Under the pieces are notes generated by a model. That model was not told the origin of the DNA. It searched no databases and worked only from the letters and a program-made list of their open reading frames with translations. Positions 33,865 to 62,878 of a stretch of 64,000 nt of DNA are shown here, one piece after another. Made by a program: the position numbers and the translations under genes. The stretch lies in assembly GCF_057098645.1 (NCBI RefSeq), contig NZ_CM169472.1. One strand, 5' to 3'. Numbering within the stretch: position 1 is the stretch's first letter; every line of letters begins with the position of its first letter.

Positions 33865-33990
33865 ACGCTTTTCCTTGTGGATCTCAACTCGCCAGCACCT
33901 ATCTTACATGCCGGTCCGTATCAGAGATACTTTTTGAGTGGCTTTGCCGGTGATTAAAAATCAAGGAGGGTGTAACGACAAGTTGCAGGC

Positions 33991-34016
33991 ACAAAAAAAC
34001 CACCCGAAGGTGGTTT
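33991..34016 (-). terminator. rho-independent terminator at the original leuZ 3-prime flank
   Basis: aaaaaaaccaccc gaa ggtggttt hairpin; left copy of the repeat. Confidence 0.6.
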
Positions 34017-34059
34017 CACGACACTGCTTATTGCTTTGATTTTATTCTTATCTTTCCCA

Positions 34060-34115
34060 TGGTACCCGGAGCGGGACTTGAACCCGCACAGCGCGAACGC
34101 CGAGGGATTTTAAAT
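34060..34115 (-). other. tRNA-Leu 3-prime fragment (integration remnant)
   Basis: tggtacccggagcgggacttgaacccgcacagcgcgaacgccgagggattttaaat equals the 3-prime part of leuZ; 5-prime part replaced by island sequence. Confidence 0.85.
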
Positions 34116-40989: not shown

Positions 40990-41058
40990 CCGGTAATCCT
41001 TCTTGGCTAAGAGGTGAAACTGTATGTCCTTACGGACATACTCAAAATGAACGAAGAC

Positions 41059-42843: not shown

Positions 42844-42865
42844 GAGCAAGCCCCCTTCCGCTTTG

Positions 42866-43549
42866 TCAGTGCAGGCAGCACTTTTTAAATTTTTTACCAC
42901 TGCCACACTGACACGGGTCATTACGACCGGGCAGTTTTTCTGCCCCCTTCACGGGAACAGGCCGGGATGATGCCTCTGACATTCTCACCGACAACCAGTG
43001 CTGGTAAAGCGCCAGTGCCGCAGGCTGAATGAGAGTAATACTCTGTTCAAATTGAACAGGTGACATTTTCTCAACCACTGGGAAGTTCTTTTCAATACCA
43101 TGAAGGGCTATCGCCTCCAGCGAGGGACGTAAGGCCTCTGGCAAGGCTGACCAGTCATCCAGAGACCGGCCTTTCATATACCCGAAACACCACTCTTCGA
43201 CGATGGTATATGTCTTCCCCTTCACCTCACGTCCATTGAAAATCGGTTCAAACTGTTCAGGGGCCTCATACAGGCAGCCAGCGATATCGTTCATATGCTG
43301 AAAACACAGCCCCACAAAACGCGTCATCTCTTTTTCAGTGGTCCAGCGAGGGTGGTAATCACCTCGCCCCCAGATAGCACTGAGCCAGGTATTAGGGGAA
43401 ATCGTATTCGGGCCAGAGACAATCGCCGTCAGAAAGCCATCCAGCTCAGAGAAACAGAGCACAGAGTCATCATTGCCGTATTTCATCAACACCTCTTCCA
43501 GCCAGTCGATTTCCCGGTCAATCAGCGGCCCGCTTTTCGTCAGTTTCAT
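42866..43549 (-). CDS. YecA-like UPF0149 protein with SEC-C motif (paralogue of chromosomal yecA)
   Basis: 227-aa ORF colinear with YecA at roughly 60 percent identity by eye, ends [24 protein letters not shown] overlap with hsdS stop; stop 22 nt before next gene. Confidence 0.7.
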   Translation of the reverse strand: MKLTKSGPLIDREIDWLEEVLMKYGNDDSVLCFSELDGFLTAIVSGPNTISPNTWLSAIWGRGDYHPRWTTEKEMTRFVGLCFQHMNDIAGCLYEAPEQFEPIFNGREVKGKTYTIVEEWCFGYMKGRSLDDWSALPEALRPSLEAIALHGIEKNFPVVEKMSPVQFEQSITLIQPAALALYQHWLSVRMSEASSRPVPVKGAEKLPGRNDPCQCGSGKKFKKCCLH

Positions 43550-44188
43550 TCGGCAACCGCCTCATCGACCTTAACACGACGTTTGCCAGTCAGTAGCTGT
43601 TGCATCAGGGCTTTTTTCTCGTCTTTCAGGCAGGCGAGTTTTTTCTCCAGCGTGGAGATTTCAGCGTCGGCAGCGGAAAGGACGGCGGCGATTTTTTGTT
43701 GTTCTTTGATATCTAATGGCAACCTAAAGTCTTTCTCTTTAAGTTCTCGCATATGTCTGCTGTAACCTAAATTCGGAATATCTGTATTTGAAAGAAGATA
43801 GTATCCAAGTTTTGGTTCAAGTATTTTGCTAGTTTTTATTACTTGCGTTCCATCAGCACCGGGACAAAACACAAACTCAATCCATTTGACGCATCTTGTA
43901 TGATCGCCAAAAACAATCACAGGCACGTCCGAATAAACCTCTAAATTATTACAGTACCCAGCAATTCGACTTTGCCCTTGATCGATTATAGGGATGGAAC
44001 CTGACTGTAAATAATCGGAAGATTTGACTTGCGCCGATTTTTTATTTGCAACAATGAAAGCATTATCAAACGTTAAATATACCCACTCCCCATTAAACCT
44101 CCCCCCATTCTCATCCAGCAAGCGTTTTTGTCCGGTAAGCAATTGCTGCATCAGGGCTTTTTTCTGTTGCTGGCTGTTGGTGAGAAGC

Positions 44189-45245
44189 GGCTTTGTTGAA
44201 TAAATCAGATTTCGGGTAAGTCTCCCCCGTAGCGGGTTGTGTTTTCAGGCAATACGCACGCTTTCAGGCATACCTGCTTTCGTCATTTTGTTCAGCGCTC
44301 GTACCAGGGCCATAGCCTCCGCAACCTGACCATCGTAGTCACGCAGCGTCAGTGAACCCCCGAACAGCTGTTTTACCCGGTACATCGCCGTTTCCGCTAT
44401 CGAGCGACGGTTGTAATCTGTTGTCCATTTCCACCGCGCATTACTCCCGGTCATTCGCTGATTAGCCACTGCACGGTTACGGTCTGCATATTCACCGGGC
44501 CAGTAGCCCGCACCTTTTCGGGGAGGGATAAGCGCGCTGATTTTCTTACGCCGCAGTTCATCGTGACATAGCCGGGTATCGTAAGCGCCATCGGCGGCGG
44601 CTGACCTGATTTTCCGGTGGGTTTGCCGGATTAACCCGGGGAAGGCCTCTGAGTCCGTAACGTTGTTCAGCGACAGGTCTGCACAGATGATTTCATGTGT
44701 TTTACTGTCAACGGCGAGATGCAGCTTACGCCAGATACGGCGGCGTTCCTGGCCATGCTTTTTGACTTTCCACTCGCCTTCACCGAAGACCTTCAGCCCG
44801 GTGGAATCAATCACCAGATGTGCGATTTCACCCCGGGTGGGCGTTTTGAAACTGACATTAACCGACTTTGCCCGCCTGCTGACACAGCTGTAATCCGGGC
44901 AGCGTAGCGGAACGTTCATCAGAGAAAAAATGGAATCAATAAAGCCCTGCGCAGCGCGCAGGGTCAGCCTGAATACGCGTTTAATGACCAGCACAGTCGT
45001 GATGGCAAGGTCAGAATAGCGCTGAGGTCTGCCTCGTGAAGAAGGTGTTGCTGACTCATACCAGGCCTGAATAGCTTCATCATCCAGCCAGAAAGTTATG
45101 GAGCCACGGTTGATGAGGGCTTTATTGTAGGTGGGCCAGTTGGTGATTTTGAACTTTTGCTTTGCCACGGAACGGTCTGCGTTGTCGGGAAGATGCGTGA
45201 TCTGATCCTTCAACTCAGCAAAAGTTCGATTTATTCAACAAAGCC
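44189..45245 (-). mobile_element. IS903-like element (IS5 family), copy 1, 1057 bp
   Basis: Terminal inverted repeats GGCTTTGTTGAATAAATC; 9-bp target duplication GTGAGAAGC at 44180-44188 and 45246-45254. Confidence 0.9.
44245..45213 (-). CDS. IS903-like transposase
   Basis: 322-aa ORF; recognised by eye as IS903/IS102-type transposase. Confidence 0.85.
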   Translation of the reverse strand: MKDQITHLPDNADRSVAKQKFKITNWPTYNKALINRGSITFWLDDEAIQAWYESATPSSRGRPQRYSDLAITTVLVIKRVFRLTLRAAQGFIDSIFSLMNVPLRCPDYSCVSRRAKSVNVSFKTPTRGEIAHLVIDSTGLKVFGEGEWKVKKHGQERRRIWRKLHLAVDSKTHEIICADLSLNNVTDSEAFPGLIRQTHRKIRSAAADGAYDTRLCHDELRRKKISALIPPRKGAGYWPGEYADRNRAVANQRMTGSNARWKWTTDYNRRSIAETAMYRVKQLFGGSLTLRDYDGQVAEAMALVRALNKMTKAGMPESVRIA

Positions 45246-45815
45246 GTGAGAAGCTTTTCCGTCACCGAAATCGCCTCATCCCAGGTTGACAGAATTTTAA
45301 CGATTCTCTTTTGTTCAGACAGTGGGGGGATATTAAATGGCCACTTAAACCAACTATCTAACTTAAAAATCATTTTCTCTATGTGCACACCAATGCTAGA
45401 GTGGAAGCAGGTTTGCTGGAAATATAGAGACTCCGATAGAAATTCCATATAAGGAAGATAAAAACCGGACTTCCCTGTAAGCACACAATATTCATTCGAT
45501 ACAATTGAGCCAGAAAGTTCTTTAGGTACAAGACCGCAAGCACCGTGCACAATTTGTCGTTTTGATATGAGAAAGTCGCCTTCTTTAATATAGAATTGAC
45601 TTTTTACGGAGATATCTTTTCCTTTAAGATGCTCACGTCTTATTACGCCACCTCTGGAGCGCTTTACTGTAACTAAGTCATACTCTTGATTATCTTGTAT
45701 ATATGCCTTTCTTGCCTCTATATTTAAGCACTTTTCTAATGATAACTTTTGCCATCCTGTAGGTAGCATTCCAAGGATCGGTTTTCCAGCTTTAACGCTC
45801 ACTGGGTAAAGCGAA

Positions 45816-47339
45816 TCACGAGCCATAACCCAACTCCTTCAAATACCCTGCCATCTCAACTTCCAGCTTCGCCAGTTCCACCTTCAGTTGCTCACGCTCT
45901 GCTCGCACCGCCACCAGGTCAATCTCATCCTCTTCTTCAAAGGTATCGACATAGCGCGGAATATTGAGGTTGTAATCGTTGTCCTGAATTTCCTTCAGGC
46001 TGGCAAGATAGGCGTATTTCTCGACGTTATCGCCATCACGGTAGGTCTTGACGATTTTCTTAATGTTTTCTTCGCTAAGCTGGTTCTGGTTTTTACCTGC
46101 CTTGAATTCACGGCTGGCATCGATAAACAGCACCTTGTCATCAACTTTCTACTTTTTGAAAATCAGAATCGCAGCCGGAATCCCCGTACCGTAGAACAGT
46201 TTTTCCGGCAGACCAATTACCGCATCCAGCAAATTTTCGTCGATCAGTTTCTGGCGAATTTTACCTTCGCTGGAGCCACGGAAAAGCACACCGTGTGGCA
46301 CAACTACGCCCATACGGCCAGTTCCCGGTTTCAGGGTTTCGATCATATGCGAGATAAAAGCGTAATCTCCTTTAGTCTTCGGCGGTACACCGCGACGAAA
46401 ACGGCCAAACTTATCGTTCTCGGCCTCGTCATGGCCCCACTTATCGAGGCTGAACGGTGGGTTAGCGGTCACGATATCAAACAGCATCAGGTCGCCATTT
46501 TTATCGAGCAGCTTCGGGTTACGAATGGTATCGCCCCACTCGATTTTATGGTTGTCTTCCCCGTGCAGGAACATATTCATTTTCGCCAGCGACCACGTAG
46601 AACCGATCGCTTCCTGACCGAACAAGGCATAGTTACGACTATCATGCCCGGAGACAATTTTACGCCCACACTTCATCAATAATGAACCGGAACCACAGGC
46701 TGGATCGCAGATGGTATCACCCGGTTGCGGATCGAGCAGTTCTGCAATCAGGTCCGAAACTTCCGGCGGGGTATAGAACTCCCCGGCTTTCTGCCCACCG
46801 CTGGCGGCAAAGTTTTTGATCAGGTATTCGTAAGCATTGCCGATAACGTCCAGCGTACCGACACGACTCGGCTTCAGGTTGAGATCTTCACCGGCGAAGT
46901 CTTCCAGTAGCTGACGCAGTATGGTGTTTTTCTGTTTTTCTTCGCCAAGACGATCGGTGTTAAACGAAATATCCTGGAACACGCTTTTCCCGGCATCTTT
47001 CAGTTTGGTTCCGTTGGCTTCTTCGATTGCATGCAGAGCCTGATCGATACGCTCACCGTTACCCAGCTCATGGCGGCGTTCGTACAGCGCATAAAAGCTG
47101 GCACTTTTTGGCAGTACAAAACGCTCGTTGGCCATCATCGCTTCAATCAGTTCCGGCGCATCGCCATACTGTTCTTTGTATTCGTCATAGTGATCCTGCC
47201 AGACATCTGAAATGTACTTGAGGAACAGCATGGTAAGGATAAAGTCTTTATAGGTATCAGCACTGATGGTGCCACGGAACGTATCACACGCGGCCCACAG
47301 GGCTTTGTTGATCGTGTCCTGACTGATTTTGTCGTTCAT
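45816..47339 (-). pseudogene. hsdM: type I R-M methyltransferase HsdM with in-frame amber codon at 46149-46151
   Basis: 396-codon ORF with N6-adenine MTase motifs (DPACGSG, NPPF) stops at ...AAILIFKK TAG, then continues in frame KVDDKVLFIDAS... for 105 more codons; overlaps hsdS start. Confidence 0.8.
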
Positions 47340-47714
47340 GAATCATCCTGGTCTGAAGAAAAAGCTAGCGATGCAGGGCTTTGCATCTTAAAAATTGCGG
47401 TAAATGATACCGTAAGATGCCTCCCCTGACACGCCAATATCGCAGCATTCAGGTTTGCATCATCCCCGTAATATCGACATGAGACAGACTGACACAACCT
47501 GGCTCGTCACTCGCTAAAAACCAATTATCTTAGTAAGATAGCATCCATATTAGCCATGGTGTAAAACTGCCGTTGGGGTAATGATGATCCATATATCACC
47601 CATTCTGGTGTGTGAAGCTGACATCATCCATAATCGGCAACGTTGATGCCCTTTGATAGTAATGATGACCGTCAATGTGATTCCCCTGCTGACTGGAGGT
47701 CTCCGGATAGAATG

Positions 47715-48878
47715 AGTATTGCCAACTGCGCTATCGGCCCACTTTATGATGAGCAAATAAAAAAAACACTTATGTATGCTGACCATAAATTCAAGCGGCT
47801 AATGAATACACGAATGTCGTTACTCGAACATTTATCACCCCACTATGACTTATCTTCCATGTTCAGCTATGAGTTGGAGGGAAGAGTTTTTCGGATTAAA
47901 TTGATCAAGCCTGAGATTAAATTATCTCGCCAGCAGTTGATCTTCTCCTCACTCTTTTTAGAGCAAGATTTTCTAAAAGAATATAAAAAACACATCTCAA
48001 ATACTCTACAAAAAACAATCAAACAGTGCATTAAAAAATACAAACAAAAAATCAAAATCGAGCCTTCTATTTTAGATTACATATCAGCATCACCCCGCAA
48101 TACGTCGAGTTATGTATTACATGAGATAGTTTCTCAATGTGAACATTGCGATGAAATTCGCAATATTAAAAATGATATATTGCTTGATGAACTAACGTTG
48201 AATGGCCGGATCACTAACATTTCAAAATACATTAAAAATAGTCAAGATAAAATCGTCGAACATATAGAGTTCTGCACTCATAAACTTGTCAATATAAGTC
48301 GTAAGAATCGTCACATTTTCAACAGCACCACAATACCTGGTAGAAAACCTAACATCACTGGTGTTTTACTTTGCCTTTCGGAATTGATAAGCAACCTGCA
48401 TATTTACCCAACTGAAATTAATAATATAAGCAATGCCATAATATTAAGCATTGTATACTCTGTACTTCAACATCTTCAATCTGGAAGAGAAACAGAAAAA
48501 ACCAAAACCTCTCCAGCACTGAATTTCATCCCCACCATCATCGCACCTCATGTTTTCTACCTGGCGAAACGCGAAAAATCCTCTCAATATAAATACATTG
48601 AAAAAGAATATCTTCTCGGCCAGTTACTTATATTTTTGATGTATAAAACAGTTTACTACTCGATTCATAGCATCAGGGTAAGCCGTAAGCATTTCTATAA
48701 CGATATAAAACCAAAATTAATGACACTAAAAAAAGAAAGCTTATTAAGCACCAATTTCATGAAAAATCGAAGAGAGATTAGTGGTGAAGTCTTTGGTGAT
48801 GTTGGTAGTATTGAGGCTGATTTTCGAGAAATCAGCACATTGATTCATCGGCGAAAGGCTCTGTTTATTTCCTTTTAA
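47715..48878 (+). CDS. hypothetical protein, AT-rich, Lys/Ile/Asn-rich
   Basis: Long ORF in strongly AT-rich DNA; start chosen at MSIANCAIG; no recognisable motifs. Confidence 0.4.
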   Translation, partial: SIANCAIGPLYDEQIKKTLMYADHKFKRLMNTRMSLLEHLSPHYDLSSMFSYELEGRVFRIKLIKPEIKLSRQQLIFSSLFLEQDFLKEYKKHISNTLQKTIKQCIKKYKQKIKIEPSILDYISASPRNTSSYVLHEIVSQCEHCDEIRNIKNDILLDELTLNGRITNISKYIKNSQDKIVEHIEFCTHKLVNISRKNRHIFNSTTIPGRKPNITGVLLCLSELISNLHIYPTEINNISNAIILSIVYSVLQHLQSGRETEKTKTSPALNFIPTIIAPHVFYLAKREKSSQYKYIEKEYLLGQLLIFLMYKTVYYSIHSIRVSRKHFYNDIKPKLMTLKKESLLSTNFMKNRREISGEVFGDVGSIEADFREISTLIHRRKALFISF

Positions 48879-49279
48879 TCTTTAGAGAACACTATATCAT
48901 CGTGAAGCAGAGCTAATTTCAGCCTTGCATAGATCATTATCAATGCCATAGACAGTGTTAATCATATGACATCGTTCCGGTATTGATACTGATTATCAGG
49001 CCTTGGTTTTATGTAATTTAAACACCACCATCTCTGAAACCCCATAACGCTCACAATTTAACCATAAAAACTAACCGGTTTATACCCGCTAACAAAATCA
49101 ATAACATATTGAATTTAAATAACTATAACCATTCCAACTACAGATGACTGGCTTTTATTTATGGTATATGTCCCGGCAGAATCAAGCTTGCGCCCTCTAC
49201 CACTCACGATTTAGGATTTCCTCGCTAACACAGCATGTTTCATTATAAATCAATGTATTAATTTAAACGAGGATAAACC

Positions 49280-50126
49280 ATGTTCGAGAAAATGAAAAAC
49301 AATGTAACCCGTGTACCGGGGAATTTAACCATACTTAATCAATACCAAAAAGACATTGATCACCTGTCTAAATTATTTTCTGAACAGCTATTACTGGATC
49401 TAATGACGACTACCAACCCTAATCAAACATTGCAAATGAAACCTTCTGTAGATATTCTTCATGTACTATCTCCATCAGCATCCACTGCTAACCATATCAA
49501 TTTTTTTCAGCACGTCCCAGTGATCGAACTATGGTTAAAAAAGGAGTGCACTGCCTTTAATTCACTTGCTATTTATTTCTATGCACAGCAATCCCGTAAA
49601 AATGTCATTCCGAAAAAAAATCTGTAGACAACTGGACGTATTTATTAATACTGAACTTGCATCTGCGGTTAATGGCAATAGTAATTCTAAACCCCTTTTT
49701 CATTTTCTAAATAACTACCTTTATCATCCTAAAATGATTGCATTGATCATTTTATCTATGCTGCCTTATGAAGTCATTCGTAACGATGAATCACTGAGTG
49801 AGTTTAAAACACCATTAACCACACCCGATGAGTTTATTATCAAAGCATTTTGCGTTAAAGGTACGCAAAACACCACGGGACATAAAAAAGATATCGAACA
49901 ATTGCTTCGAAAAACATATATCTACATTGCATTACTTTTGAACCCTGAGTGGGTACCATCATCCAAGGATTTGATTTCCTTTTTATCAGGAGAGTCCACC
50001 GAGATAAGTGGTTCAATGAATTTCCAGTCAACGTCCAGTGGTCTGGGTGTTCAAACTAACAATATCACTCTTCTTAAGAATGAGGTTTACTTCGAAAAAA
50101 TAGCGAACAAGATCATGAAACTGTAG
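49280..50126 (+). pseudogene. hypothetical gene split by a frameshift in an A8 tract (49614-49621)
   Basis: ORFs 49280-49627 and 49566-50126 overlap in different frames; with A7 instead of A8 the frame reads through (...IPKKICRQLDVF...). Confidence 0.45.
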
Positions 50127-50271
50127 TTTCTTAATATAATGGCGACATGGAATTGTGTTGCCATTATATCCGAATCAGAATTTTTCACCTGATGAACTGT
50201 GAAAACTGAGACTGGCAGACAGTAATCTCGCACCGTATTTTTTCTGTGTTATTTTACAGGAGAAATACGAT

Positions 50272-51400
50272 GCCCATTCTGGATCTGCGTTTCAGCAACA
50301 AATCACTTCACCAACTTCCCCATCCCCTCACGGGCTGTCAGGAATACCGTGATATTCACTGCCAAAACCTGCGTGCTCTGGTGTATCCCAATCGGATCAC
50401 GCTGGCCTTTCGTGCCACTATAAACAATCAGCGTATATATGAACCCCTGGGTCAGTTCCCTCAGCTCTGCGTTGAGGATGCCCGTCAGCATGTGATGAAA
50501 CTGCTTGCTGATAAAAATCGTCTTGCGGTTCAGTCCCGTCGATTCACTGTGGAACAGGCCATCAATGACCTGTGGCTACCGGATTTGCAGTTGTATAAAA
50601 AGAGTCCTCAGTCAGAGTTGTCAAAACTCAACCTCTACGTTCGCCCGTTCTGGGGCAAGCGGCAACTTCGCGACATCACGGCAGGAGAACTAGAACAATA
50701 TGCTGCTGGCTTACGGGAAAAATTACGTCCGTCAACAGTAAACCGTATCCTCGCAATATTGTCCAAAATATGCTCTCTGGCAGTACGTGCTGGATGGATC
50801 ACGCATTCCCCGATGTCACATGTCCGCTATCTGAAAGAAAATAACATTCGCTATCGCACACTATCAGCGACAGAAATCCCGCGCTTTATTGACGCGGCAA
50901 CAGCGCTGCAAACACCGGCAGCTGATTCTATATTGCTTGCTCTTTATACGGGGATGCGTATTGGTGAGGTATGTACCCTGAAATGGGAGTACTGGCACCT
51001 GGATATGCATCAACTCATACTGCCTGATACAAAGTCCGGACACCCTTTCACCTGCCCACTTGCACCTCCAGCCATTGCAGTTGTCCAGTGCCAGCAGGAC
51101 CTGATGCTCAGCAAAACTTACATTTTTCCGCGACTAACCGACAATGCCCGCCCTCTGGCATATCCGCGTGCAACCTTTGCCCGTATTTGCCGGGATGCCG
51201 ACATTGATAACCTGCGGATGCATGACCTGCGCCGTACCTTTGCCACCCGGGTACTACAGGCGACCGGGGATATTGCAATCGCTTCCCATCTGCTAAATCA
51301 CCATTCACTCACGGCGACCCGTCGCTACGCTTTTCACAATGCAGCGACATCACACGCAGTGGTTTCTCAGGTCATTGAAAGTTATGACACGAAAAAATGA
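50272..51400 (+). CDS. tyrosine-type site-specific integrase
   Basis: RBS AGGAG then ATG; catalytic signature R (YTGMRIGE), HDLRRT, HH, RYAFH with Tyr. Confidence 0.75.
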
Positions 51401-51608: not shown

Positions 51609-51786
51609 GAACACGGAAAATAACGCTAATAATGCACTGAACATTCTTCCCGAATCAGCAAGCACAGCTGTAGACAACGATGAAAAATATCTGTCCTTTG
51701 CATTAGTTCTCGCTATCACGATTATGGGCAACTGAACCGCCCCGGGAATCCTGGAGACTAAACTTCCTGAGAAAGAGGTAAACAGG

Positions 51787-52113
51787 ATGACTAAAAATAC
51801 TCGTTTTTCCCCTGAAGTCCGTCAACGGGCAGTCCGTATGGTTCTGGAAAGTCAGGGCGAATATGACTCACAATGGGCGACAATTTGTTCCATTGCTCCA
51901 AAGATTGGCTGTACGCCGGAGACTCTGCGTGTCTGGGTTCGCCAGCATGAGCGGGATACCGGGGGCGGTGATGGAGGGCTCACCACCGCTGAACGTCAGC
52001 GTCTGAAAGAGCTGGAGCGTGAAAATCGTGAACTGCGCCGCAGTAACGATATCCTTCGCCAGGCTTCCGCTTATTTTGCGAAGGCGGAGTTCGACCGCCT
52101 CTGGAAAAAATGA
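51787..52113 (+). CDS. IS629 OrfA (transposase N-terminal HTH part)
   Basis: 108-aa [22 protein letters not shown]... Confidence 0.85.
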
Positions 52114-53000
52114 TGCCACTGCTGGATAAGCTGCGTGAGCAGTACGGGGTCGGACCGCTATGCAGCGAACTGCATATTGCCCCGTCAACGTATTACCACT
52201 GTCAGCAACAGCGACATCATCCGGATAAACGCAGTGCCCGTGCGCAGCGCGATGACTGGCTGAAGAAAGAGATACAGCGCGTATACGATGAAAATCACAA
52301 GGTATACGGTGTGCGTAAAGTCTGGCGTCAGTTGTTACGGGAAGGTATCAGAGTGGCCAGATGCACTGTGGCACGTCTCATGGCGGTTATGGGACTTGCC
52401 GGTGTTCTCCGGGGTAAAAAGGTCCGTACGACCATCAGCCGGAAAGCCGTTGCCGCAGGCGACCGCGTAAACCGTCAGTTCGTGGCAGAACGACCTGACC
52501 AGCTGTGGGTGGCTGATTTTACTTACGTCAGCACATGGCAGGGCTTCGTCTATGTGGCGTTCATCATTGATGTGTTTGCCGGATACATTGTGGGGTGGCG
52601 GGTCTCATCGTCCATGGAGACGACATTCGTGCTGGATGCACTGGAGCAGGCGTTATGGGCCCGTCGACCGTCCGGCACGGTCCATCACAGTGATAAAGGT
52701 TCTCAGTATGTATCGCTGGCCTACACACAGCGGCTTAAGGAAGCCGGATTACTGGCATCAACAGGAAGTACAGGCGACTCGTATGACAACGCGATGGCGG
52801 AGAGCATCAATGGTCTTTACAAAGCGGAGGTAATACACCGTAAGAGCTGGAAAAACCGTGCAGAAGTGGAACTGGCCACACTCACGTGGGTGGACTGGTA
52901 TAACAATCGACGATTGCTGGAAAGGCTGGGCCATACTCCTCCGGCAGAAGCAGAAAAAGCTTATTATGCTTCCATCGGAAACGATGATCTGGCAGCCTGA
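52110..53000 (+). CDS. IS629 OrfB (transposase catalytic part, DDE)
   Basis: 296-aa ORF overlapping orfA. Confidence 0.85.
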
Positions 53001-53662
53001 GTTCACAGATAAAACACTCTCCAGGAAACCCGGGGCGGTTCAAACTTAGTAAAGCTCATCGGCACAGATGGCTTCATACTTTATACCTACACCCTGCAGG
53101 ACACGGCTACTGCTCGTGCTGTTTTTAATGAATTAGCCAGGCGTCTCAAAAATTTCAATCGTCAGGAGGAGGTCTACACCACCGATTCCCTCACCTTTCG
53201 AATGAAATACATTTACGGTGTTACCCTGTTCGAACATGATAGTAAATCTATCCTTAACCTTTTTGATAAGAAGGGTTATCCAGTATTGAGTGAATCAGGA
53301 GAACCCGGTTCTCTTGATGATATGTATCTTGACATTCAAGCCCGATTACATGGCGGCTACGCCTCAAAAAAGTTTCTTCATTTACATGAACATTGTCTGT
53401 TATCTGCACACGTTACCCCGTCTGTGGAAAAGACGCAACGTGGTATCCTGATTAAAGCAGGCAGGAAACTCGTTTCCTTTATCTATGCAGATAATGAATC
53501 TCGCAAAAATGATATTTTCAAAGCTGTAGTAGACGTCATTAAATCCTGATTCATTATGCCGGGTGCGTATTCCGCTCTATTCGATCACGGATTGGCATCG
53601 AAGTCCGATCAGCGATTCGCATCCATTCGATCAACCGGGAACTTAACTTTTTCTACCGCTTT

Positions 53663-54421
53663 TTAACGCGTTTTTTCGCTGCTTTCCACTACCGGGGGAT
53701 TTTTCCTCAGTGACTCTCCCTGAAGGACCACTCGGTGTGAGTTATGTACCAGTCTGTCCAGGATGGCATCTGCTGTTGTTGGGTTCTCCATCAGACCATG
53801 CCATTTATCTACCGGGAACTGGCTTACCACTATCGTGCTGCTTTGTCCGTAACGATCCTCTATGAGCTCCAGAAGGTCATTACACTGGGCGTTACTTAAC
53901 TGTTCCAGCCCCAGATCGTCCAGGATTAGAACCTGTATTTTTTGCAACTGTTTCAGATATTTCAGCCAGCTGCCATCAACACGTCCCTGAGCCAGTTGTT
54001 CCAGTAATCGCCCGGTTCTACAGTACCGGACGCTGTGTTTCTGTCGACATGCCTGTTCGCCCAGCGCATTGGCTATCCAGCTCTTGCCACATCCTGTCGG
54101 ACCGGTTATCAGCAGGTTTTTCCTGTGGGTTATGTAGTGGCCGTTCAGCAGTTCTCTCATCTGTTCAGCCCGCAGACCTCTTGAGGCCGGATAGCGCAGC
54201 CCTTCCGGTGTTGCCTGGTATTTCAGGCCGGCATTTTTTCTCAACCGTGCCACACGGCTGTTTTCCCTGCTCAGAAGCTCGTCATCAACCAGCAGCGTCA
54301 GCCTTTCCTCGAACGACAGTTCGTCGTAGGTCTGAGGCGTTTCCCGCTGCCGTATCAGGCTCCCGGCCATCGCCGGGAGTTTCAGTTGGGTCAGTTTGTT
54401 TAACAGGTTATCACTCATACT
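53663..54421 (-). CDS. istB: IS21-family IstB ATP-binding helper protein
   Basis: Start at MSDNLLNKL; Walker A GPTGCGKS. Confidence 0.75.
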   Translation of the reverse strand, partial: SMSDNLLNKLTQLKLPAMAGSLIRQRETPQTYDELSFEERLTLLVDDELLSRENSRVARLRKNAGLKYQATPEGLRYPASRGLRAEQMRELLNGHYITHRKNLLITGPTGCGKSWIANALGEQACRQKHSVRYCRTGRLLEQLAQGRVDGSWLKYLKQLQKIQVLILDDLGLEQLSNAQCNDLLELIEDRYGQSSTIVVSQFPVDKWHGLMENPTTADAILDRLVHNSHRVVLQGESLRKNPPVVESSEKTR

Positions 54422-54434
54422 GTTGTTCCTTCTG

Positions 54435-55970
54435 TCAGTGGTAGTAGCCCGGACCACGCAGGTTTTCATGCTCTGAAGCATATGCCGGATGTTGTTCGCC
54501 CTGGCGGGATAATGGAAGCTCCAGGTTCTCCCGATGGTGACGCAGCAGATTGTCGATAAAGCGTCTGTCAGGGGCGTTATAGTGCAGGGCAACGTAACAG
54601 GCCTTTTCCAGCCGTTCCGGGCCGTATTTTTTCTGAAGTGCCAGCAGCCCCAGAACTGCACGATAAGCCAGTTCCGGATGGGGTTTTGCCTTCAGCATGG
54701 ATTCAACCACCCGGCCTGTGGACGGGCCCGTACGTTTTCCCTGCTCGATCAGGCGTTCCGGTGTCCATGTCCCGTGCTGCCGGTGGCGCTCTGGCATGTG
54801 AAGCGGATTGGTTGTGTGTTTATATTCATGTGTGCTGCGCGGATGTTGCGCCACACACTGCCCCTTGTGCCAGAGCTGTACCACCGACTGCCCCGCCTTC
54901 AGTGACAGACGCTGACCGACCAGTTCGTGTGGAACGGAGTACCAGTGACGGGCATATTCAACGTGGTAGTCAGGGCCAACCTTCACAGCTTTGTATTCCG
55001 TGTATTCATAAGGTGCCAGAGGCAGCGGAGAGAGTGCTGGCGCATCCAGTATGCGGAAGCGTTCTGCACGGGTTTGATTGCCGTACCCCTTCATTGGCCG
55101 GTTATTCATGTCTGTCAGTAACTCCCTAAGGCGCGCATTCAGCGCCCTGAGCGTGTGGAAGGTTTCATTACGGATGCGGGCAAGAAGCCATCGTTCAACG
55201 ATGAGGACGCCGTTTTCTGCTTTTGGTTTATCTTTAGGTTTGCGTGGTCGGGCCGGGATGATAACCGTGCCATAGTGCTCAGCCAGTGCCTGATAACTGT
55301 CGTTGATGACAGGCTCATATCGATCGGCCTTTTTCACTGCGCTTCTGAGGTTATCGGGGATGAGCAGCTTCGGTACGCCGCCCAGGAAGGTCAGGCAACG
55401 GCTGTGGGCATTTAACCATGACATCATGTCCTGACCTTCGCACGCTTCAACGTAGGTATAGTTGGACGCCCCCATTACGGCCACGAAGATTGCCACGCGG
55501 CGTATCTCACCGGTGTCCGGATTAATAACAGGAACCGTAGGACCACAGAAGTCGATAAAAAGCTTTTCGCCGGCACGATGCTCCTGGCGCATGGAGAGAC
55601 GTCGCGTTTTTTTCCACTCCCGGTAGCAACGGCAGAAGTGCGAGTATCCCATCGCTTTGTTACCCGCCTGTGCCTTGTATTCCATCCACAACAGTTGCCG
55701 CGTCACACCTGGTTTTCTCATTTCCGTATCGAAGTACAACATGTCAGGCATTACAAGCTCTGATGCAAAGGTGTCTTTGGGCGGAAAAATGAGTTTCTCC
55801 AGCGTGTCATGGGATATATCAGCAGGTAATGGCCATGACAGAGAAGAGGCTTTGAAGCGGGCAAGAACCTCAAAAACGGTTGAGGCGCTGATGTGTAACG
55901 TCAGTCCGATACAACGGTTAGTCAGCTTCTTGTCGAACTTGAGCTGAAGGATCTTAAAACAGGTTTCCAT
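54435..55970 (-). CDS. istA: IS21-family transposase IstA
   Basis: Start chosen at METCFKIL; DDE integrase-type fold; precedes istB. Confidence 0.7.
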   Translation of the reverse strand: METCFKILQLKFDKKLTNRCIGLTLHISASTVFEVLARFKASSLSWPLPADISHDTLEKLIFPPKDTFASELVMPDMLYFDTEMRKPGVTRQLLWMEYKAQAGNKAMGYSHFCRCYREWKKTRRLSMRQEHRAGEKLFIDFCGPTVPVINPDTGEIRRVAIFVAVMGASNYTYVEACEGQDMMSWLNAHSRCLTFLGGVPKLLIPDNLRSAVKKADRYEPVINDSYQALAEHYGTVIIPARPRKPKDKPKAENGVLIVERWLLARIRNETFHTLRALNARLRELLTDMNNRPMKGYGNQTRAERFRILDAPALSPLPLAPYEYTEYKAVKVGPDYHVEYARHWYSVPHELVGQRLSLKAGQSVVQLWHKGQCVAQHPRSTHEYKHTTNPLHMPERHRQHGTWTPERLIEQGKRTGPSTGRVVESMLKAKPHPELAYRAVLGLLALQKKYGPERLEKACYVALHYNAPDRRFIDNLLRHHRENLELPLSRQGEQHPAYASEHENLRGPGYYH

Positions 55971-56594
55971 AGTGCTCCTGGATTTTCTCTTTCTGGACAT
56001 TGACGTCTCCACTGGTTTAAACACGGCAATGGAGACTGTGGTGAAAAGAGTTAATTCCCGGAGTGACTGGCAGGATGCCAATCAATGATCGGAAGCATGC
56101 CAAATCGTGATCGATTGTGATGCCAAACTGTGATCGGAGATGGATGCCAAATCATGATCGATTCGAATGCCAAACTGCGATCGATTCAGATGCCATTTTG
56201 CAGCCGGGGGGGACGAACTCCCGGCATTTTTTCGGAGTTAACTATGAGCAATAATTTGCAGGACATCCTCGCTGCCGCATCGGGGTATCAGTCCGTGACT
56301 TCAGAGCCAGCGCTCAATCTTAAAAGACCTAAAACGCTTGATGATTATCCTGTGATACCACCTGCATCAAAAAAAGTATCTGTTATTTCAAGTGACCTGA
56401 CACTCCATATCGGTTTTGATACCGAATATGTTTTCAATCCTGAAACACAACAGAATGATATTCTGTCATATCAGAGTTATGTTGTCTTACCCGATAATAC
56501 AGGTATATCGAACATTATCTATCCACCTGACTCACAGAAAAAATCCCGGCTGTCTTTTAAGAACTTTCTCTGTCAAACGATTATGGATTTGCCC

Positions 56595-57500
56595 CTATAT
56601 TTCCAGACATCTGTTATCACTTAACCCATTACAAGCCCGCTGCCGCAGATATTCCCGTGGCGAGCGATAACCCAGCGCACTATGCGGATGCCATTCGTTA
56701 TAATGCTCGAACGCCTCTGCAAGGTTCTTTGCTGCCGTTAACCCGTCTGGTTTGGGCATGATACTGATGTAGTCACGCTTTATCGTTTTCACGAAGCTCT
56801 CTGCTATTCCGTTACTCTCCGGACTCCGCACCGCCGTGTTCTTCGGTTCAAGTCCCAACATCCGGGCGAACTGGCGTGTTTCATTAGCCCGGTAGCATGA
56901 ACCATTATCCGTCAGCCACTCCACTGGAGACGACGGAAGATCGTTGCCGAAGCGGCGTTCCACCGCTCCCAGCATGACGTCCTGTACTGTTTCACTGTTG
57001 AAGCCGCCGGTAGTCACCGCCCAGTGCAGTGCCTCACGATCACAGCAGTCCAGCGCGAACGTGACACGCAGTCTCTCTCCGTTATCACAGCAGAACTCGA
57101 ACCCGTCAGAGCACCATCGCTGATTGCTTTCTTTCACGGCCACTCTGCCTGTATGTGCCCGTTTCGATGGCGGTACAGCAGGTTTTCGCTCAAGCAACAG
57201 CGCATTCTGGCGCATGATCCGGTAAACACGTTTGGCATTGATCGCAGGCATACCATCAAGTTCTGCCTGTCTGCGAAGCAGCGCCCATACCCGACGATAA
57301 CCATACGTGGGCAGCTCTCCGATAACATGGTGTATACGGAGAAGCACATCCGTATCATCAGTGTGACGACTGCGGCGGCCATCCATCCAGTCATCGGTTC
57401 GTCTGAGAATGACGTGCAACTGCGCACGCGACACCCGGAGACAACGGCTGACTAAGCTTACTCCCCATCCCCGGGCAATAAGGGCGCGTGCGCTATCCAC
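56595..57500 (-). CDS. insD: IS2 transposase InsD
   Basis: 301-aa ORF. Confidence 0.85.
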
Positions 57501-57823
57501 TTTTTTGCCCGTCCATATTCAACGGCTTCTTTGAGGAGTTCATTTTCCATCGTTTTCTTGCCGAGCAGGCGCTGGAGTTCTTTAATCTGCTTCATGGCGG
57601 CAGCAAGTTCAGAGGCAGGAACAACCTGTTCTCCGGCGGCCACAGCAGTAAGACTTCCTTCCTGGTATTGCTTACGCCAGAGAAATAACTGGCTGGCTGC
57701 TACACCATGTTGCCGGGCAACGAGGGAGACCGTCATCCCCGGTTCAAAGCTCTGCTGAACAATTGCGATCTTTTCCTGTGTGGTACGCCGTCTGCGTTTC
57801 TCCGGCCCTAAGACATCAATCAT
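57458..57823 (-). CDS. insC: IS2 InsC
   Basis: Start at [13 protein letters not shown], 121 aa. Confidence 0.85.
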
Positions 57824-59974
57824 CTGTTCTCCAATGACTAGTCTAAAAACTAGTATTAAGACTATCACTTATTTAAGTGATACTGGTTGTCTGGAGATTC
57901 AGGGGGCCAGTCTAGATTACACCGCTTCTTGAAACGGGTGTGATTACAAAATGGCCCGGTATTATTAATATATATGCGCATTTCATTCGTGCGGATATCA
58001 CCTCCTTTGCCAATTTCTGGTCAGACTACAAAATTCTTCTGAAAGGAATACGCGGTACTGTCAGCAGCTTCAAAAATCGTTACGGTATCGATTTTGATGA
58101 ACAGCAGGAACGTCGCGTAAAGACTGAACAGATAATGTTTGACAAACGAACTTCCCCTCCGCGTTGCAGTAACGTAGCTTTCATCGATACACTGCTTATC
58201 ACTCCCGGGGGTATGGGTCTGGCTGAATGTGGTGAATTACTGGGTCTTCCCAAACTGACCATTCCTGCACCTTATTCCATAACCAATATGCGTGAATATC
58301 TTCTGGGCGACAGAGCAGGGTTTGAAGCCTATGCTCTGCGGGATGCCGAGATTGCGGTTCGTTATGCTTTACAGGTTCGCAATTTTTGCGCCCGGGAGCT
58401 GATGATTGATCGTGTCCCCGCCACCATCGGGGCGATGGCAGTTTCACGGTTCACCAAAACACTTAAAGAAAACAATATGTCTCCTGAAGTCTGCCTTGGG
58501 ACACACATTAAAACCCGTGAACTCTGGCTCACGGAGAAACAGGCATTCCGGACGATTAAAAACCCCGCCAGTGTTCCTTCAAGAGAGCTGTTTGAAACGT
58601 TCCCGATCAACTGTTACCACGGCGGACGCAATGAGTGTTTTATGATGGGGGTTACACCGTCTGATCACTGGTATGACTACGATCTGGCTGGAGCGTATAC
58701 CACCGGGCTATTAGATATCCTCATACCCGATTACGGAAACATCCGCCTCAGTAAAAATCCGGACGATTACTGTGGGCATGTAATGGGATTTGCGTTTGTC
58801 ACATTTCAGTTCCCGGAATCAGTTCCCTATCCCAGCCTGCCGGTTCGGACCGATCAATATGGGTTATTCTTTCCATTAAGTGGCGAATCATGGGCAACGG
58901 CACCTGAAATCGAACTTGCTCTGTCGCTCGGGGCAGAGATGACGATCCATAATGGGATCATCGTCCCCTGGATCTGTGACACCTCCCCACATAACAGCGA
59001 ATCAACATCGGTGTTTCTTCCCTTTGTTCAACAGGTCCGTGAGAACCGTAATCGCCATATTAAAGGTTCTCTGGAGGAGAAATTCTGGAAAGAAATTGGC
59101 AACTCGCTTTATGGCAAACTTGCTCAGGGCCTTCGCGCCAAAACCGCCTTTGATACTGCCCGTGGATTAAACAGATCCCTCCCACCATCATCGGTTACTC
59201 AGCCATTCTTTGCTGCGCATGTGACGGGATTTATCCGCGCCGTTGTCGGGGAACTCATGAATGCTTTGCCTTCTGATTCATCGGTTGTCAGCGTCACAAC
59301 CGATGGCTTTTTGACAAATTGCCCACTTAACAAGATAAACATGAGCGGTCCACTGTCTTCCCGCTTCCAGTCGCTGTGCGATATTGTTGATCCGGGTTCA
59401 TCAATGTTGACATGTAAGCATGAGGTCAGCCAGCTTATCGCCATGAAAACCCGGGGGCAGTTAACCTATAGAGCTATTCAGGGAAAACCTGTTGTTCATG
59501 CCAGGGCTGGCGTCAAACCTCCTGCCGATATTCCACGCAGTGACTATAACGACTATATGGTAGATCTTTACCTTAATCGTTTACCCGGTCAGACGTTATC
59601 CCGAAGTACGTTGATATCAACGCGTGAGATGTGGCTGTCGGAAAGCGATCTGGTATCCCGGGAACAGGATATCCGTCTTAATCTGGAATTCGATTTCAAA
59701 CGCCAGCCCGTACAGCCCGCCATGAATGAAGGGCATTTACTGATGTCTTCCCGCCCATGGGATAATATGGAAGAGGCTCTGCAGCAACGCTCTCTTTTCG
59801 ACGACTGGCGGCAAACGCATACACTGAAGACCCTGGCTGACTGGGATGACTGGTGTGATTTTCTCTATTGCCGGACGGTGTTTTCTGATATGAAACTAAA
59901 AGTCGGAAGCAAACGTAGTGATGATATTTTAGTCAGACTATTTCTCCGGGCGCTGACTCAGTGCCAATGGGGGC

Positions 59975-60523
59975 TTATGCTGAAAGATAAAAAAAGTTAT
60001 TCCTGTAAAGAGGTTGCTGAATGGCTGACGTCAGAAGGCTATTCAGTAACATGTCAAAAAGCACCTGCTGGATCTCCCGGGCCCGAAGGTCGCAGTAACG
60101 TATCTTCCCCAGACGAGGTTCAATGTATTGCGTGAAACGCTGAACATCCTTATCCCAGGACTTTTTATGGCGTTTGATGAACGGAACATAGGTCTGGTGA
60201 AAAAACTCACTAAGTGTTGGCATCGCACGATAATTATCGCGTTCTGCTTTAGGGTCATTTCCCAGTGCAATCGCCTCCTTGTGACGACGAGCTATCTGAC
60301 GGGCTGTCCCCACATCGATTTCAGGGAATCTGCCAATACTGATACTTTTTTTGGTACCGTGGAATGTGTAGCGCAGGAGGAAACGTTTGTTACCCGTTCG
60401 ACCTGAGAGACATTTGAGGCCTATGACCTCGGTATCTGATACCTCAAGCTCTGTAGATCGGGTATCTGTGTTTGCCGGAAGGGCTTTGATGGATGAATTG
60501 GTGAATCGGAAGGATTTTTGCAT
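59975..60523 (-). pseudogene. N-terminal fragment of a P4-type tyrosine integrase (arm-binding domain), truncated
   Basis: MQKSFRFTNSSIKALP ... GRFPEIDVGTARQIARRHKEAIALGNDP resembles integrase N-terminal domain; no catalytic domain follows; overlaps piPolB 3-prime end on the opposite strand. Confidence 0.5.
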
Positions 60524-60709
60524 ATTTATCCTCATGTATCTGATTGATATCATGAAAATAATATATATCTGAAGGTGTTTTTATTACGGGGCAGGATTGA
60601 AGAATGGAAAAGCTATTAGACGCGTACAAACGGATATTGCAGGAAGTTAACGCCCAGTCATTTAACCTGAATGAGGATAAATACTCAGGCGTCTTTTTAC
60701 CCGTGCCGT

Positions 60710-62578: not shown

Positions 62579-62708
62579 CAGGCACAAAAAAACCACCCGG
62601 AGGTGGTTTCACGACACTGCTTATTGCTTTGATTTTATTCTTATCTTTCCCATGGTACCCGGAGCGGGACTTGAACCCGCACAGCGCGAACGCCGAGGGA
62701 TTTTAAAT
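62579..62708. repeat. attR: 130-bp direct repeat (leuZ 3-prime part plus downstream flank)
   Basis: Matches 33986-34115 with 1 mismatch. Confidence 0.9.
62584..62609 (-). terminator. rho-independent terminator downstream of leuZ (copy within attR)
   Basis: aaaaaaaccaccc gga ggtggttt. Confidence 0.6.
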
Positions 62709-62739: not shown

Positions 62740-62751
62740 TCGGGAAGAAAG

Positions 62752-62825: not shown

Positions 62826-62878
62826 AAATTCTTCAGGCCTTTCAGCCAGACATCCGCTGACGCCGATGTCTTTTAAAC

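What the first reader, a model, noticed from the sequence alone, without database searches (positions are those of the whole stretch)
49280..50126. Frameshift at an A8 homopolymer in an island gene
Two overlapping ORFs fuse into one frame of about 280 codons if the A8 run at 49614-49621 is A7. Poly-A tracts of this length are slippage-prone, so this could be phase-variable expression, a programmed frameshift, or a sequencing indel.
Basis: seen in the sequence. Interest (0 to 1): 0.4.

Follow-up and report, generated by a model that had tools for sequence, protein, structure and literature searches.

The report
Frameshifted pseudogene in decaying pipolin island
The two overlapping reading frames are the remains of one 376-codon gene of unknown function in a known kind of E. 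coli mobile island (a pipolin), broken by an extra A in a run of A's and by a 285-base deletion, so this is ordinary gene decay and not a regulated frameshift.

Summary
The A8 run is at 49613-49620. ORFs 49280-49627 and 49566-50126 fuse into 281 codons if one A is removed.

Orthologues in E. coli, Salmonella, Edwardsiella, Phytobacter, Serratia, Hafnia and Lelliottia are single 376-381-aa proteins that align straight across the site. Intact alleles carry A7 (AAA AAA ATC, Lys-Lys-Ile) or AAAGAAA. So A8 is a +1 insertion that stops translation at codon 115.

The window also lacks 285 bp (95 conserved codons, junction at 49711). Even the "repaired" frame would therefore give an internally deleted protein.

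The gene lies in a pipolin, bounded by att repeats at 33986-34115 and 62579-62708 on tRNA-Leu. It sits directly upstream of the integrase-excisionase-orphan-piPolB module. This copy is decaying: five IS insertions, an amber stop in hsdM, and split hsdS and piPolB.

The tract is a real slippage hot spot. A7, A8 and A9 alleles exist, and A8 arose on at least three backgrounds. But all 77 contigs carrying the deletion allele have A8, and an A7-plus-deletion product is absent from 15 billion proteins.

There is no conserved shift and no stimulatory signal. Published data show no E. coli RNA polymerase deletion slippage on poly(A).

Verdict: fixed pseudogene, low interest.

The parts
49280..49627 (+). 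ORF1: the first 112 codons of the ancestral 376-codon gene, then 3 out-of-frame codons (Lys-Asn-Leu) and a TAG stop
   Evidence: identical to NCBI WP_187002355.1 in RM12761, PS10-3 and G1/2; exact product on 308 contigs
49613..49620 (+). A8 homopolymer, the frameshift site. The in-frame ancestral state is A7 (CCG AAA AAA ATC = Pro-Lys-Lys-Ile)
   Evidence: A7 in PapRG-06-5 and 2018-05-5CC, AAAGAAA in strain 1506, A9 in L009-L014
49566..50126 (+). ORF2: the rest of the gene in the +1 frame (NCBI start at ATG 49602). It corresponds to residues 113-143 and 239-376 of the intact protein
   Evidence: the exact 174-aa product from ATG 49602 is on 77 contigs
49710..49712 (+). Junction of a 285-bp in-frame deletion (residues 144-238 of the intact protein), with 1 nt of ambiguity (the A at 49711)
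   Evidence: alignment to PapRG-06-5 and PS10-3; BLAST blocks abut at 49711; junction sequences
50246..51400 (+). Tyrosine integrase (the IntP2-type of the pipolin literature) directly downstream on the same strand. This adjacency is conserved in all homologous loci examined
   Evidence: Pfam Phage_integrase E 5e-22; neighbourhoods; PMC11551731
50134..50169 (.). 14-nt inverted repeat between the gene's stop codon and the integrase start
   Evidence: identical in PapRG-06-5 and PS10-3; function not tested
47643..48878 (+). Upstream 410-aa orphan gene, intact here. It is present in E. coli and Edwardsiella loci but absent from Serratia and the P0055-type loci, so it is not obligatorily linked
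   Evidence: (weak AbiJ_NTD4, E 0.006, below cut-off)
33986..34115 (.). attL: 130-nt direct repeat of the tRNA-Leu end, the left boundary of the pipolin
   Evidence: 99.2% identical to 62579-62708
62579..62708 (.). attR: 130-nt direct repeat overlapping the 3' part of tRNA-Leu(taa) at 62653-62739 (- strand)
   Evidence: matches the published pipolin structure (PMC7385651)
56245..56583 (+). piPolB, N-terminal fragment (coordinates approximate), cut off by an IS3-family insertion at 56583-57915
   Evidence: piPolB motifs in the intact orthologue
57915..60135 (+). piPolB, the remainder after the IS insertion
46149..47339 (-). hsdM of the cargo type I R-M system, truncated by a CAG to TAG amber mutation at 46149-46151 (396 of 507 codons)
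44188..45246 (-). IS5-family insertion that splits hsdS (halves at 43546-44151 and 45215-45826)
51733..53043 (+). IS3-family element (orfA 51787-52113, orfB 52110-53000) inserted in the ~212-aa core orphan gene
53563..56203 (-). IS21-family element (istA 54435-56081, istB 53663-54661) inserted between the orphan gene and piPolB

Best explanation
The two ORFs are a pseudogene. The ancestral gene encodes a 376-aa all-helical protein of unknown function. It belongs to enterobacterial pipolins and always lies directly upstream of the integrase-excisionase-orphan-piPolB module. Its codons 112-114 (AAA AAA ATC) form an A7 run. Strand slippage during DNA replication added one A, giving A8. This moves the ribosome into a frame that ends three codons later (115 aa) and leaves the rest of the gene as a second ORF with no Shine-Dalgarno sequence of its own. 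In the lineage of this window the dead gene then lost 285 bp (residues 144-238, which include the most conserved helix). The lesion is inherited and fixed in the lineage. It is one of many in a pipolin that is being eroded by IS elements, a nonsense mutation and deletions. Shown here: the A7/A8 difference, the deletion, the single-gene state of the orthologues, the pipolin identity, the other lesions, and the stability of A8 in the lineage. Inferred: replication slippage as the mutational mechanism, frameshift before deletion as the order of events, loss of function, and relaxed selection as the reason.
For: Single-gene ancestry. PapRG-06-5 has A7 and an intact 376-aa gene that differs from the window by 1 SNP, the tract and the deletion. 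Thirteen to 18 orthologues of 375-381 aa, down to 31-41% identity, align colinearly across the site, where Lys-Lys is replaced by KE, EK, KH or EH.

Census of complete E. coli genomes. About 244 carry the gene. 101 match the A7 form of the main allele exactly. A further 127 match it at 95-99% identity, and every sampled row but one (ET450, see evidence against) had no length change. One has A8 on that backbone (CFSAN061762). In the window's allele class, 10 of 15 have A8.

Deletion. 285 bp are missing relative to both the A7 and the A8 relatives.

Stability. The exact A8 C-terminal product with the deletion is on 77 contigs. The 281-aa A7-plus-deletion product and the 282-aa A10 product are absent from about 15 billion proteins.

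Decay context. The hsdM amber stop, five IS copies that split hsdS, the core orphan and piPolB, and a truncated Arm-only integrase next to the tRNA. Other A8 or A9 loci also carry broken neighbours: split integrase in PS10-3 and L012, split 410-aa gene in G1/2, split hsdM in L014.

Pipolin identity. Att repeats, tRNA-Leu, and the piPolB motifs D59/E61, KH-X8-KTRG at 613-626 and SVTTDG. The pipolin papers describe the same structure and frequent truncations.
Against: The tract clearly mutates repeatedly. A8 occurs on at least three sequence backgrounds, each with A7 relatives: window/PS10-3 type, G1/2 type with an adjacent T to C change, and CFSAN061762 type. It also occurs in a fourth allele type, P0012. 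A9 occurs 2 SNPs away from A7 and A8 alleles. This pattern is also what a contingency locus would show.

ORF2 has stayed open in the non-deleted A8 alleles (83 contigs for one exact 269-aa product), so those copies may be young or still under some constraint.

Loss of function was not tested. The protein's function is unknown, so I cannot show that the 95-residue deletion is disabling.

Some tract lengths in long-read assemblies may be errors. ET450 shows both A6 and T6.
Confidence: 0.85

Rival explanations
1. Phase variation. The poly-A run is a contingency tract that reversibly switches the gene ON (A7) and OFF (A8, A9) by slippage, giving mixed populations.
For: A7, A8 and A9 are all found among alleles that differ by 4 SNPs or fewer. 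A8 arose independently on several backgrounds. The tract lies in the first third of the gene.
Against: No variation within the lineage: 77 contigs with the deletion allele all have A8, and no A7-plus-deletion product is on record. On the main allele, 101 complete genomes have exactly A7 and one has A8. In this window the ON state would still lack 95 conserved residues. Many alleles interrupt the run (AAAGAAA) or use other codons, so the tract is not conserved. From general knowledge: 7-9 A in mismatch-repair-proficient E. coli is shorter than typical contingency tracts. Neighbouring genes are decaying too.
Confidence: 0.07
2. Recoding. The A8 allele is expressed as a full-length protein by programmed +1 ribosomal frameshifting or by transcriptional slippage on the A run.
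For: An A run lets tRNA-Lys re-pair perfectly after a +1 shift and would recreate the exact wild-type sequence PKKICRQ (reading of the sequence). Unprogrammed frameshift suppression of about 1% is documented in E. coli (PMC10861913). Transcriptional rescue of interrupted genes is known, for example Citrobacter tssM (PMC4256274, listed).
Against: The shift is not conserved; most orthologues are in frame. The common -1 slip on A AAA AAA leads into the dead-end third frame (the 143-aa product seen in A9 alleles). No Shine-Dalgarno-like stimulator is visible upstream and no RNA structure stands out (z 0.35 and 0.07). E. coli RNA polymerase gave no detectable rescue by deletion on poly(A), and insertion needs at least 8 A (PMC6260861). 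Any rescued product here would be internally deleted.
Confidence: 0.03
3. Sequencing or assembly indel. The genome really has A7 and the extra A is a homopolymer error.
For: Homopolymer miscalls occur in the same gene in other assemblies. ET450 has both A6 and T6. CFSAN061762 is a singleton among complete genomes.
Against: Identical A8 in RM12761, RM13516, five PS10-3-type genomes and the window, which is a different assembly with different IS positions. The exact 115-aa product is on 308 contigs from NCBI, ENA, JGI and Logan short-read assemblies.
Confidence: 0.03
4. Two genuine genes. ORF1 and ORF2 are separate functional proteins.
For: NCBI annotates them as two hypothetical proteins. Both ORFs are open.
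Against: Both halves align to one continuous protein in every distant orthologue. No split form exists beyond near-identical alleles. The ORF2 start has no ribosome-binding site.
Confidence: 0.01

Closest known systems
Pipolins of Enterobacterales: piPolB-encoding integrative elements at tRNA-Leu between pgsA and yecA (Redrejo-Rodriguez 2017, PMC5695915; Flament-Simon 2020, PMC7385651; Mateo-Caceres 2024, PMC11551731)
   Same: 130-nt att direct repeats with attR on tRNA-Leu. piPolB with the KH-X8-KTRG and SxTTDG motifs. An integrase followed by an excisionase near piPolB. A truncated Arm-only integrase near the tRNA. A variable defence cargo (type I R-M, GmrSD) distal to the core. ISs near the integrase, and truncations. 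All of these are described in the papers and seen here.
   Different: In the passages I read, the papers name orphan core proteins but do not describe this 376-aa gene or its frameshift alleles. I could not check whether it is one of their '2 orphan proteins'.
Homopolymer frameshift pseudogenes (ordinary gene decay at mononucleotide runs)
   Same: A one-base length change in an A/T run inside a coding region. A premature stop. Accompanying lesions in the same and neighbouring genes. Clonal inheritance.
   Different: Nothing essential. The same tract has mutated on several backgrounds (A8 at least three times, and A9), which marks it as a local hot spot.
Contingency (phase-variable) loci with homopolymeric tracts, for example poly-G or poly-C tracts in Neisseria, Haemophilus and Campylobacter (general knowledge)
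   Same: An intragenic mononucleotide run near the 5' third of the gene whose length sets the reading frame. Several lengths are seen in nature.
   Different: The tract is short (7-9 A). It is not conserved among orthologues. There is no variation within the sampled clonal lineage. The host is mismatch-repair proficient. In this window the in-frame state would still be a deleted protein.
Programmed frameshifting or transcriptional slippage: IS3-family orfAB -1 frameshift, prfB +1, Citrobacter tssM and Shigella mxiE slippage (PMC5009743, PMC1088944, PMC4256274)
   Same: Two overlapping ORFs joined at a slippery A run.
   Different: The shift is not conserved. There is no stimulator. The direction needed (+1, or deletion of an A in the mRNA) is the one E. 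coli RNA polymerase does not detectably make on poly(A). A true programmed case sits in the same window for comparison: the IS3-family element at 51787-53000, annotated by NCBI with a programmed frameshift in RM12761.

Membership tests
Pipolin (the element that carries the gene) | Encodes a primer-independent family B DNA polymerase (piPolB) with the KH-X8-KTRG motif, SxTTDG in place of YxDTDS, and exonuclease D59/E61 | tested here: met
   The orthologous intact 851-aa protein (L002 9515-12067) has D59/E61, K613-H614, KTRG at 623-626, SVTTDG and KxxxNSLYG. These match the residues given in PMC5695915. In the window the gene is split by an IS.
Pipolin (the element that carries the gene) | Flanked by att-like direct repeats, with the right one overlapping a tRNA-Leu gene | tested here: met
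   130-nt repeats, 99.2% identical, at 33986-34115 and 62579-62708. tRNA-Leu(taa) at 62653-62739. PMC7385651.
Pipolin (the element that carries the gene) | Enterobacterial core: IntSXT-type recombinase near the tRNA, and IntP2-type integrase plus excisionase near piPolB | tested here: inconclusive
   Integrase (Pfam Phage_integrase) followed by an HTH_17 protein next to piPolB: present. The tRNA-proximal recombinase is only an Arm-domain remnant (NCBI annotation), as in the truncated subgroup described in PMC11551731. The IntP2 and IntSXT subfamily assignments were not tested with their profiles.
Programmed ribosomal frameshift site | The frameshift is conserved among orthologues (the gene is never or rarely in one frame) | tested here: not met
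   All orthologues below 90% identity, and about 228 of 244 complete E. coli genomes, show no A8 at the site and are annotated as one gene.
Programmed ribosomal frameshift site | A stimulatory element: an upstream Shine-Dalgarno-like sequence, a downstream RNA structure, or an adjacent stop or hungry codon | tested here: not met
   No SD-like sequence upstream. Downstream and spanning folds are no better than shuffles (z 0.35 and 0.07). The 0-frame stop is two codons past the run, not adjacent.
Transcriptional-slippage recoding | A run long enough for the host RNA polymerase to slip in the direction needed | tested here: not met
   Rescue needs loss of one A (or gain of two). The published E. 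coli reporter series found no rescue by deletion on poly(A) and a threshold of 8 A for insertions (PMC6260861). Not measured on this sequence.
Phase-variable contingency locus | Tract length differs among very close relatives | tested here: met
   A7 (PapRG-06-5), A8 (PS10-3, window) and A9 (L009-L014) occur within 4 SNPs or fewer over the gene.
Phase-variable contingency locus | Switching within a clone or lineage (both states recovered from one lineage) | tested here: not met
   77 contigs carry the exact A8-plus-deletion product. The A7-plus-deletion (281 aa) and A10-plus-deletion (282 aa) products are absent from the collection. Read-level heterogeneity is not testable with these tools.
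Phase-variable contingency locus | The in-frame state encodes a complete, functional protein | tested here: not met
   In this window the in-frame state lacks residues 144-238, which hold 8 of the invariant columns of the 13-sequence alignment and the highest-confidence helix of the model. Function itself was not tested.

The most novel reading that the evidence does not exclude
The A7 run is kept as a mutational switch of a pipolin core gene. Loss of the 376-aa protein by A7 to A8 is repeatedly selected, for instance because the protein is costly or promotes excision or replication of the element. The recurrent frameshifts would then mark domestication or immobilisation of pipolins by their hosts, not neutral decay. 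In non-deleted A8 alleles, reversion could re-arm the element.
Probability: 0.07. Interest if true: 0.45.

Novelty: already known. Interest (0 to 1): 0.15.

Why it matters
It matters little beyond annotation. The two "hypothetical proteins" that NCBI calls here (WP_187002355.1 and WP_229998153.1 in RM12761) should be read as one pseudogene. The 281-codon "repaired" frame should not be taken as the native protein, which has 376 residues.

Two modest by-products:

1. The gene is a conserved, uncharacterised orphan found only next to the integrase-excisionase-piPolB module of enterobacterial pipolins. Only 31 representatives match it among 1.84 billion proteins. That makes it a candidate core function of these little-understood elements.
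2. Its A7 run is a recurrent breakage point, which could serve as a marker of pipolin decay.

Tried and rejected
**Function of the 376-aa protein**
- Pfam, PADLOC, PHROGs and NCBIfam gave nothing.
- A profile search of 1.84 billion representatives found only the family itself.
- The first AlphaFold model, from 13 sequences, was poor (pLDDT 60.7). A second from 18 sequences was usable (pLDDT 74.4, pTM 0.65).
- Foldseek against AFDB was not available.
- Hydropathy peaks at 1.5 over 19 residues, so there is no confident membrane helix.

**Ideas rejected**
- A two-gene defence pair with the upstream 410-aa gene. That gene is missing from the Serratia and P0055-type loci, while the integrase linkage holds. 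Its AbiJ_NTD4 hit is below cut-off.
- A 281-aa database protein (P0047) looked at first like an A7-plus-deletion revertant. It is the TTG-started ORF2 of a non-deleted G1/2-type allele.
- The T7 run at 49501-49507 as a second hot spot. It is unchanged in eight loci. The 296-aa N-truncated forms come from a 1-nt deletion outside any run. Only ET450 shows T6, together with A6, which is probably a long-read artefact.

**Dead ends**
- Identifying the source genome. No complete RefSeq E. coli genome has the window's IS junction. The closest, RM12761 and RM13516, differ by a 9-kb deletion and in IS positions.
- Two paper look-ups failed on short search terms.

Full report
**1. The observation**

The region holds a single A8 run at window 49613-49620.
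- ORF 49280-49627 (115 codons) and ORF 49566-50126 overlap across the run.
- Removing one A joins them into 846 nt, that is 281 codons plus stop.
- A8 runs are not rare in this window: five A8 and one T8 in 64 kb. The gene is AT-rich, 36% G+C against 48.5% for the window.
- So the run alone means little. What matters is that it sits exactly where two ORFs, both homologous to one protein, change frame.

**2. What the gene should look like**

The window is E. coli. Over 49200-50200 it is identical to O145:H28 strains RM12761 and RM13516.
- NCBI annotates two hypothetical proteins there.
- In strain PapRG-06-5 the same locus is one 1131-nt gene of 376 codons. It differs from the window by one SNP, by A7 instead of A8, and by 285 bp that the window lacks.
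- Strain PS10-3 has A8 and the split but keeps the 285 bp.
- The window therefore carries two lesions. One is a +1 A that ends translation after 115 codons. The other is an in-frame 285-bp deletion with its junction at 49711, which removes residues 144-238.

**3. Orthologues**

A search of 5.8 billion protein clusters found only 17 relatives, all in Enterobacterales.
- The full-length forms are 376 aa in E. coli, Enterobacter, Phytobacter, Edwardsiella and Salmonella. They are 380 aa in Serratia, Lelliottia and Hafnia, at about 40% identity.
- A profile search of 1.84 billion representatives added four more full-length subfamilies (375-381 aa) and nothing else, 31 hits in all.
- All align without a break across the tract. 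Lys112-Lys113 is replaced by KE, EK, KH, AH or EH in other members.
- The single reading frame is therefore ancestral, and the A run is an accident of two AAA lysine codons followed by ATC.

**4. How the tract varies**

*Complete E. coli genomes (5,426).* About 244-250 carry the gene.
- On the main allele (about 91% identical to the window), 101 genomes match an A7 query exactly.
- Another 127 differ from that query only by substitutions in the rows sampled, apart from ET450 (below). An example is AAAGAAA in strain 1506.
- One genome, CFSAN061762, has A8 on that backbone.
- In the window's own allele class there are 15 genomes. Ten have A8: RM12761, RM13516, five PS10-3-type, and three G-strains with A8 plus an adjacent T to C change. 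Three are intact with A7. Two carry an unrelated 1-nt deletion.

*Independent origins.* SNP distances place A8 alleles in three clades that each also contain A7 or interrupted alleles. A fourth allele type also has an A8-type ORF2 (P0012). So the insertion arose at least three times.

*The 15-billion-protein collection.*
- The exact 115-aa A8 product is on 308 contigs.
- A 143-aa product that can only come from A9 is on 31 contigs.
- Six A9 loci were fetched and confirmed. They lie 2 SNPs from the A7 and A8 alleles and have no deletion.

*Caveat.* Some length calls may be errors. ET450 shows both A6 and T6 in this gene, the signature of long-read homopolymer under-calling.

**5. Is it switching?**

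The deletion marks the window's lineage.
- Its exact A8-dependent 174-aa product is on 77 contigs.
- The 281-aa product expected from A7 plus the deletion is absent from the collection. So is the 282-aa product expected from A10.
- On the main allele, A7 is stable (101 exact against 1).
- This is the pattern of a mutational hot spot whose products are inherited clonally. It is not the pattern of a rapid reversible switch.
- In this window a return to A7 would still give a protein without 95 residues. Those residues include the longest, most hydrophobic and most confidently modelled helix (204-233) and several invariant positions.

**6. Is it recoding?**

ORF2 is in the +1 frame relative to ORF1, so rescue needs a +1 ribosomal shift or loss of one A in the mRNA.
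- The common -1 slip on A AAA AAA leads into the third frame, which is the dead-end 143-aa product.
- No Shine-Dalgarno-like stimulator is visible upstream.
- The flanking RNA folds no better than shuffled sequence (z 0.35 and 0.07).
- A systematic reporter study found that E. coli RNA polymerase needs at least eight A's for insertional slippage and gave no rescue by deletion on poly(A) (PMC6260861).
- Unprogrammed frameshift suppression of the order of 1% exists in E. coli (PMC10861913). A trace of fused product therefore cannot be excluded.
- The shift is not conserved, which is the defining property of programmed cases.

**7. Where the gene lives**

The window contains tRNA-Gly, tRNA-Cys and tRNA-Leu(taa) at 62653-62954.
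- A 130-nt segment overlapping the 3' part of tRNA-Leu (62579-62708) is repeated at 33986-34115 with 99.2% identity. This delimits a 28.7-kb island.
- The large gene downstream of the integrase encodes, in intact relatives, an 851-aa protein with the diagnostic residues of primer-independent PolB: D59/E61, K613-H614-X8-KTRG623-626, SVTTDG and KxxxNSLYG (PMC5695915).
- The island is therefore a pipolin, a known class of element. All but one of the E. coli pipolins described are integrated at this tRNA-Leu gene (PMC7385651). In Enterobacterales pipolins have a small conserved core and a variable defence cargo (PMC11551731).

*Gene order.* In E. coli, Edwardsiella, Serratia and the hosts of P0055, the 376-381-aa gene always lies directly upstream of, and on the same strand as, integrase, HTH_17 excisionase, a ~211-aa orphan and piPolB. 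The genes to its left change: type I R-M; type III-like R-M plus a UvrD-nuclease; dynamin-like GTPases; patatin. It is thus a core-side orphan of the element and not cargo. I infer, without a test, that it serves the element's own maintenance or mobility.

*Function.* Its function remains unknown.
- No family library recognises it.
- The better AlphaFold model (pLDDT 74.4) is an all-helical bundle.

**8. The element is decaying in this strain**

Relative to PapRG-06-5, the window's pipolin has:
- an IS5-family insertion splitting hsdS (44188-45246), and a second copy at 60709-61766;
- an IS3-family element in the ~212-aa orphan (51733-53043);
- an IS21-family element (53563-56203);
- another IS3-family element inside piPolB (56583-57915);
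- an amber mutation in hsdM (46149-46151);
- only an Arm-domain remnant of the tRNA-proximal integrase, as in the truncated pipolin subgroup described in PMC11551731.

Other A8 or A9 loci also have broken neighbours. The frameshift is one lesion among many.

**9. Verdict**

The best explanation is a fixed pseudogene, made by replication slippage at an A7 run and followed by a 285-bp deletion, in a decaying pipolin (confidence 0.85).
- Phase variation (0.07), recoding (0.03), sequencing error (0.03) and two true genes (0.01) are each contradicted by specific results above.
- Read-level heterogeneity and expression could not be tested here.
- Novelty: an ordinary, known kind of event in a known kind of element.
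- The only mildly interesting residue is a conserved, uncharacterised pipolin core-side orphan with a recurrent breakage point.
- Interest: 0.15.

Noticed in passing
window 33986-62708: The whole island is a pipolin. It has 130-nt att repeats at 33986-34115 and 62579-62708 (on tRNA-Leu 62653-62739), a piPolB gene with the KTRG and SVTTDG motifs, and a cargo of GmrSD (34463-36334), an M48 peptidase and a type I R-M system.
   Followed up: yes
window 46149-46151 (- strand): hsdM of the cargo type I R-M system carries a CAG to TAG amber mutation, truncating 507 to 396 codons. With hsdS split by an IS, the R-M system is probably dead.
   Followed up: partly
window 44188-45246, 51733-53043, 53563-56203, 56583-57915, 60709-61766: Five IS copies sit inside the 28.7-kb element: two IS5-family, two IS3-family and one IS21-family. 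They split hsdS, the ~212-aa core orphan and piPolB. Their positions differ from those in the closest complete genomes, RM12761 and RM13516.
   Followed up: partly
window 51787-53000: The IS3-family element has overlapping orfA and orfB. NCBI annotates the identical copy in RM12761 with a programmed frameshift and an 'AL1L pseudoknot'. This is a true recoding site 2 kb from the false one.
   Followed up: no
window 50134-50169: A 14-nt inverted repeat (ATATAATGGCGACA / TGTTGCCATTATAT, 8-nt spacer) lies between the gene's stop codon and the integrase start. It is identical in PapRG-06-5 and PS10-3. No T-run follows, so it may be a protein-binding site or a weak terminator.
   Followed up: partly
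window 47643-48878: The upstream 410-aa orphan is intact here. It has a weak, sub-threshold AbiJ_NTD4 match (E 0.006). It is present with the gene in E. coli and Edwardsiella but absent in Serratia and other hosts, and it is split in strain G1/2.
   Followed up: partly
L021 (E. coli ET450, NZ_CP100958.1) 560-1000: This complete genome shows A6 at the tract and T6 at the T7 run of the same gene. Both are one base short, which looks like long-read homopolymer under-calling. It warns against trusting singleton tract lengths in public assemblies.
   Followed up: partly
L008 (E. coli NT1F31) and H12 (LCP22S3_I2): An unrelated 1-nt deletion (CATGTACTA to CATGACTA, equivalent to about window 49464) frameshifts the same gene in another lineage. 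It gives the 296-aa N-truncated product found on 8 contigs.
   Followed up: partly
window 38735-47745 versus RM12761: RM12761 and RM13516 lack 9 kb that the window retains (most of hsdR through hsdM). No complete RefSeq E. coli genome shares the window's IS junction at 51733. The source genome is therefore a related lineage not in that collection.
   Followed up: partly
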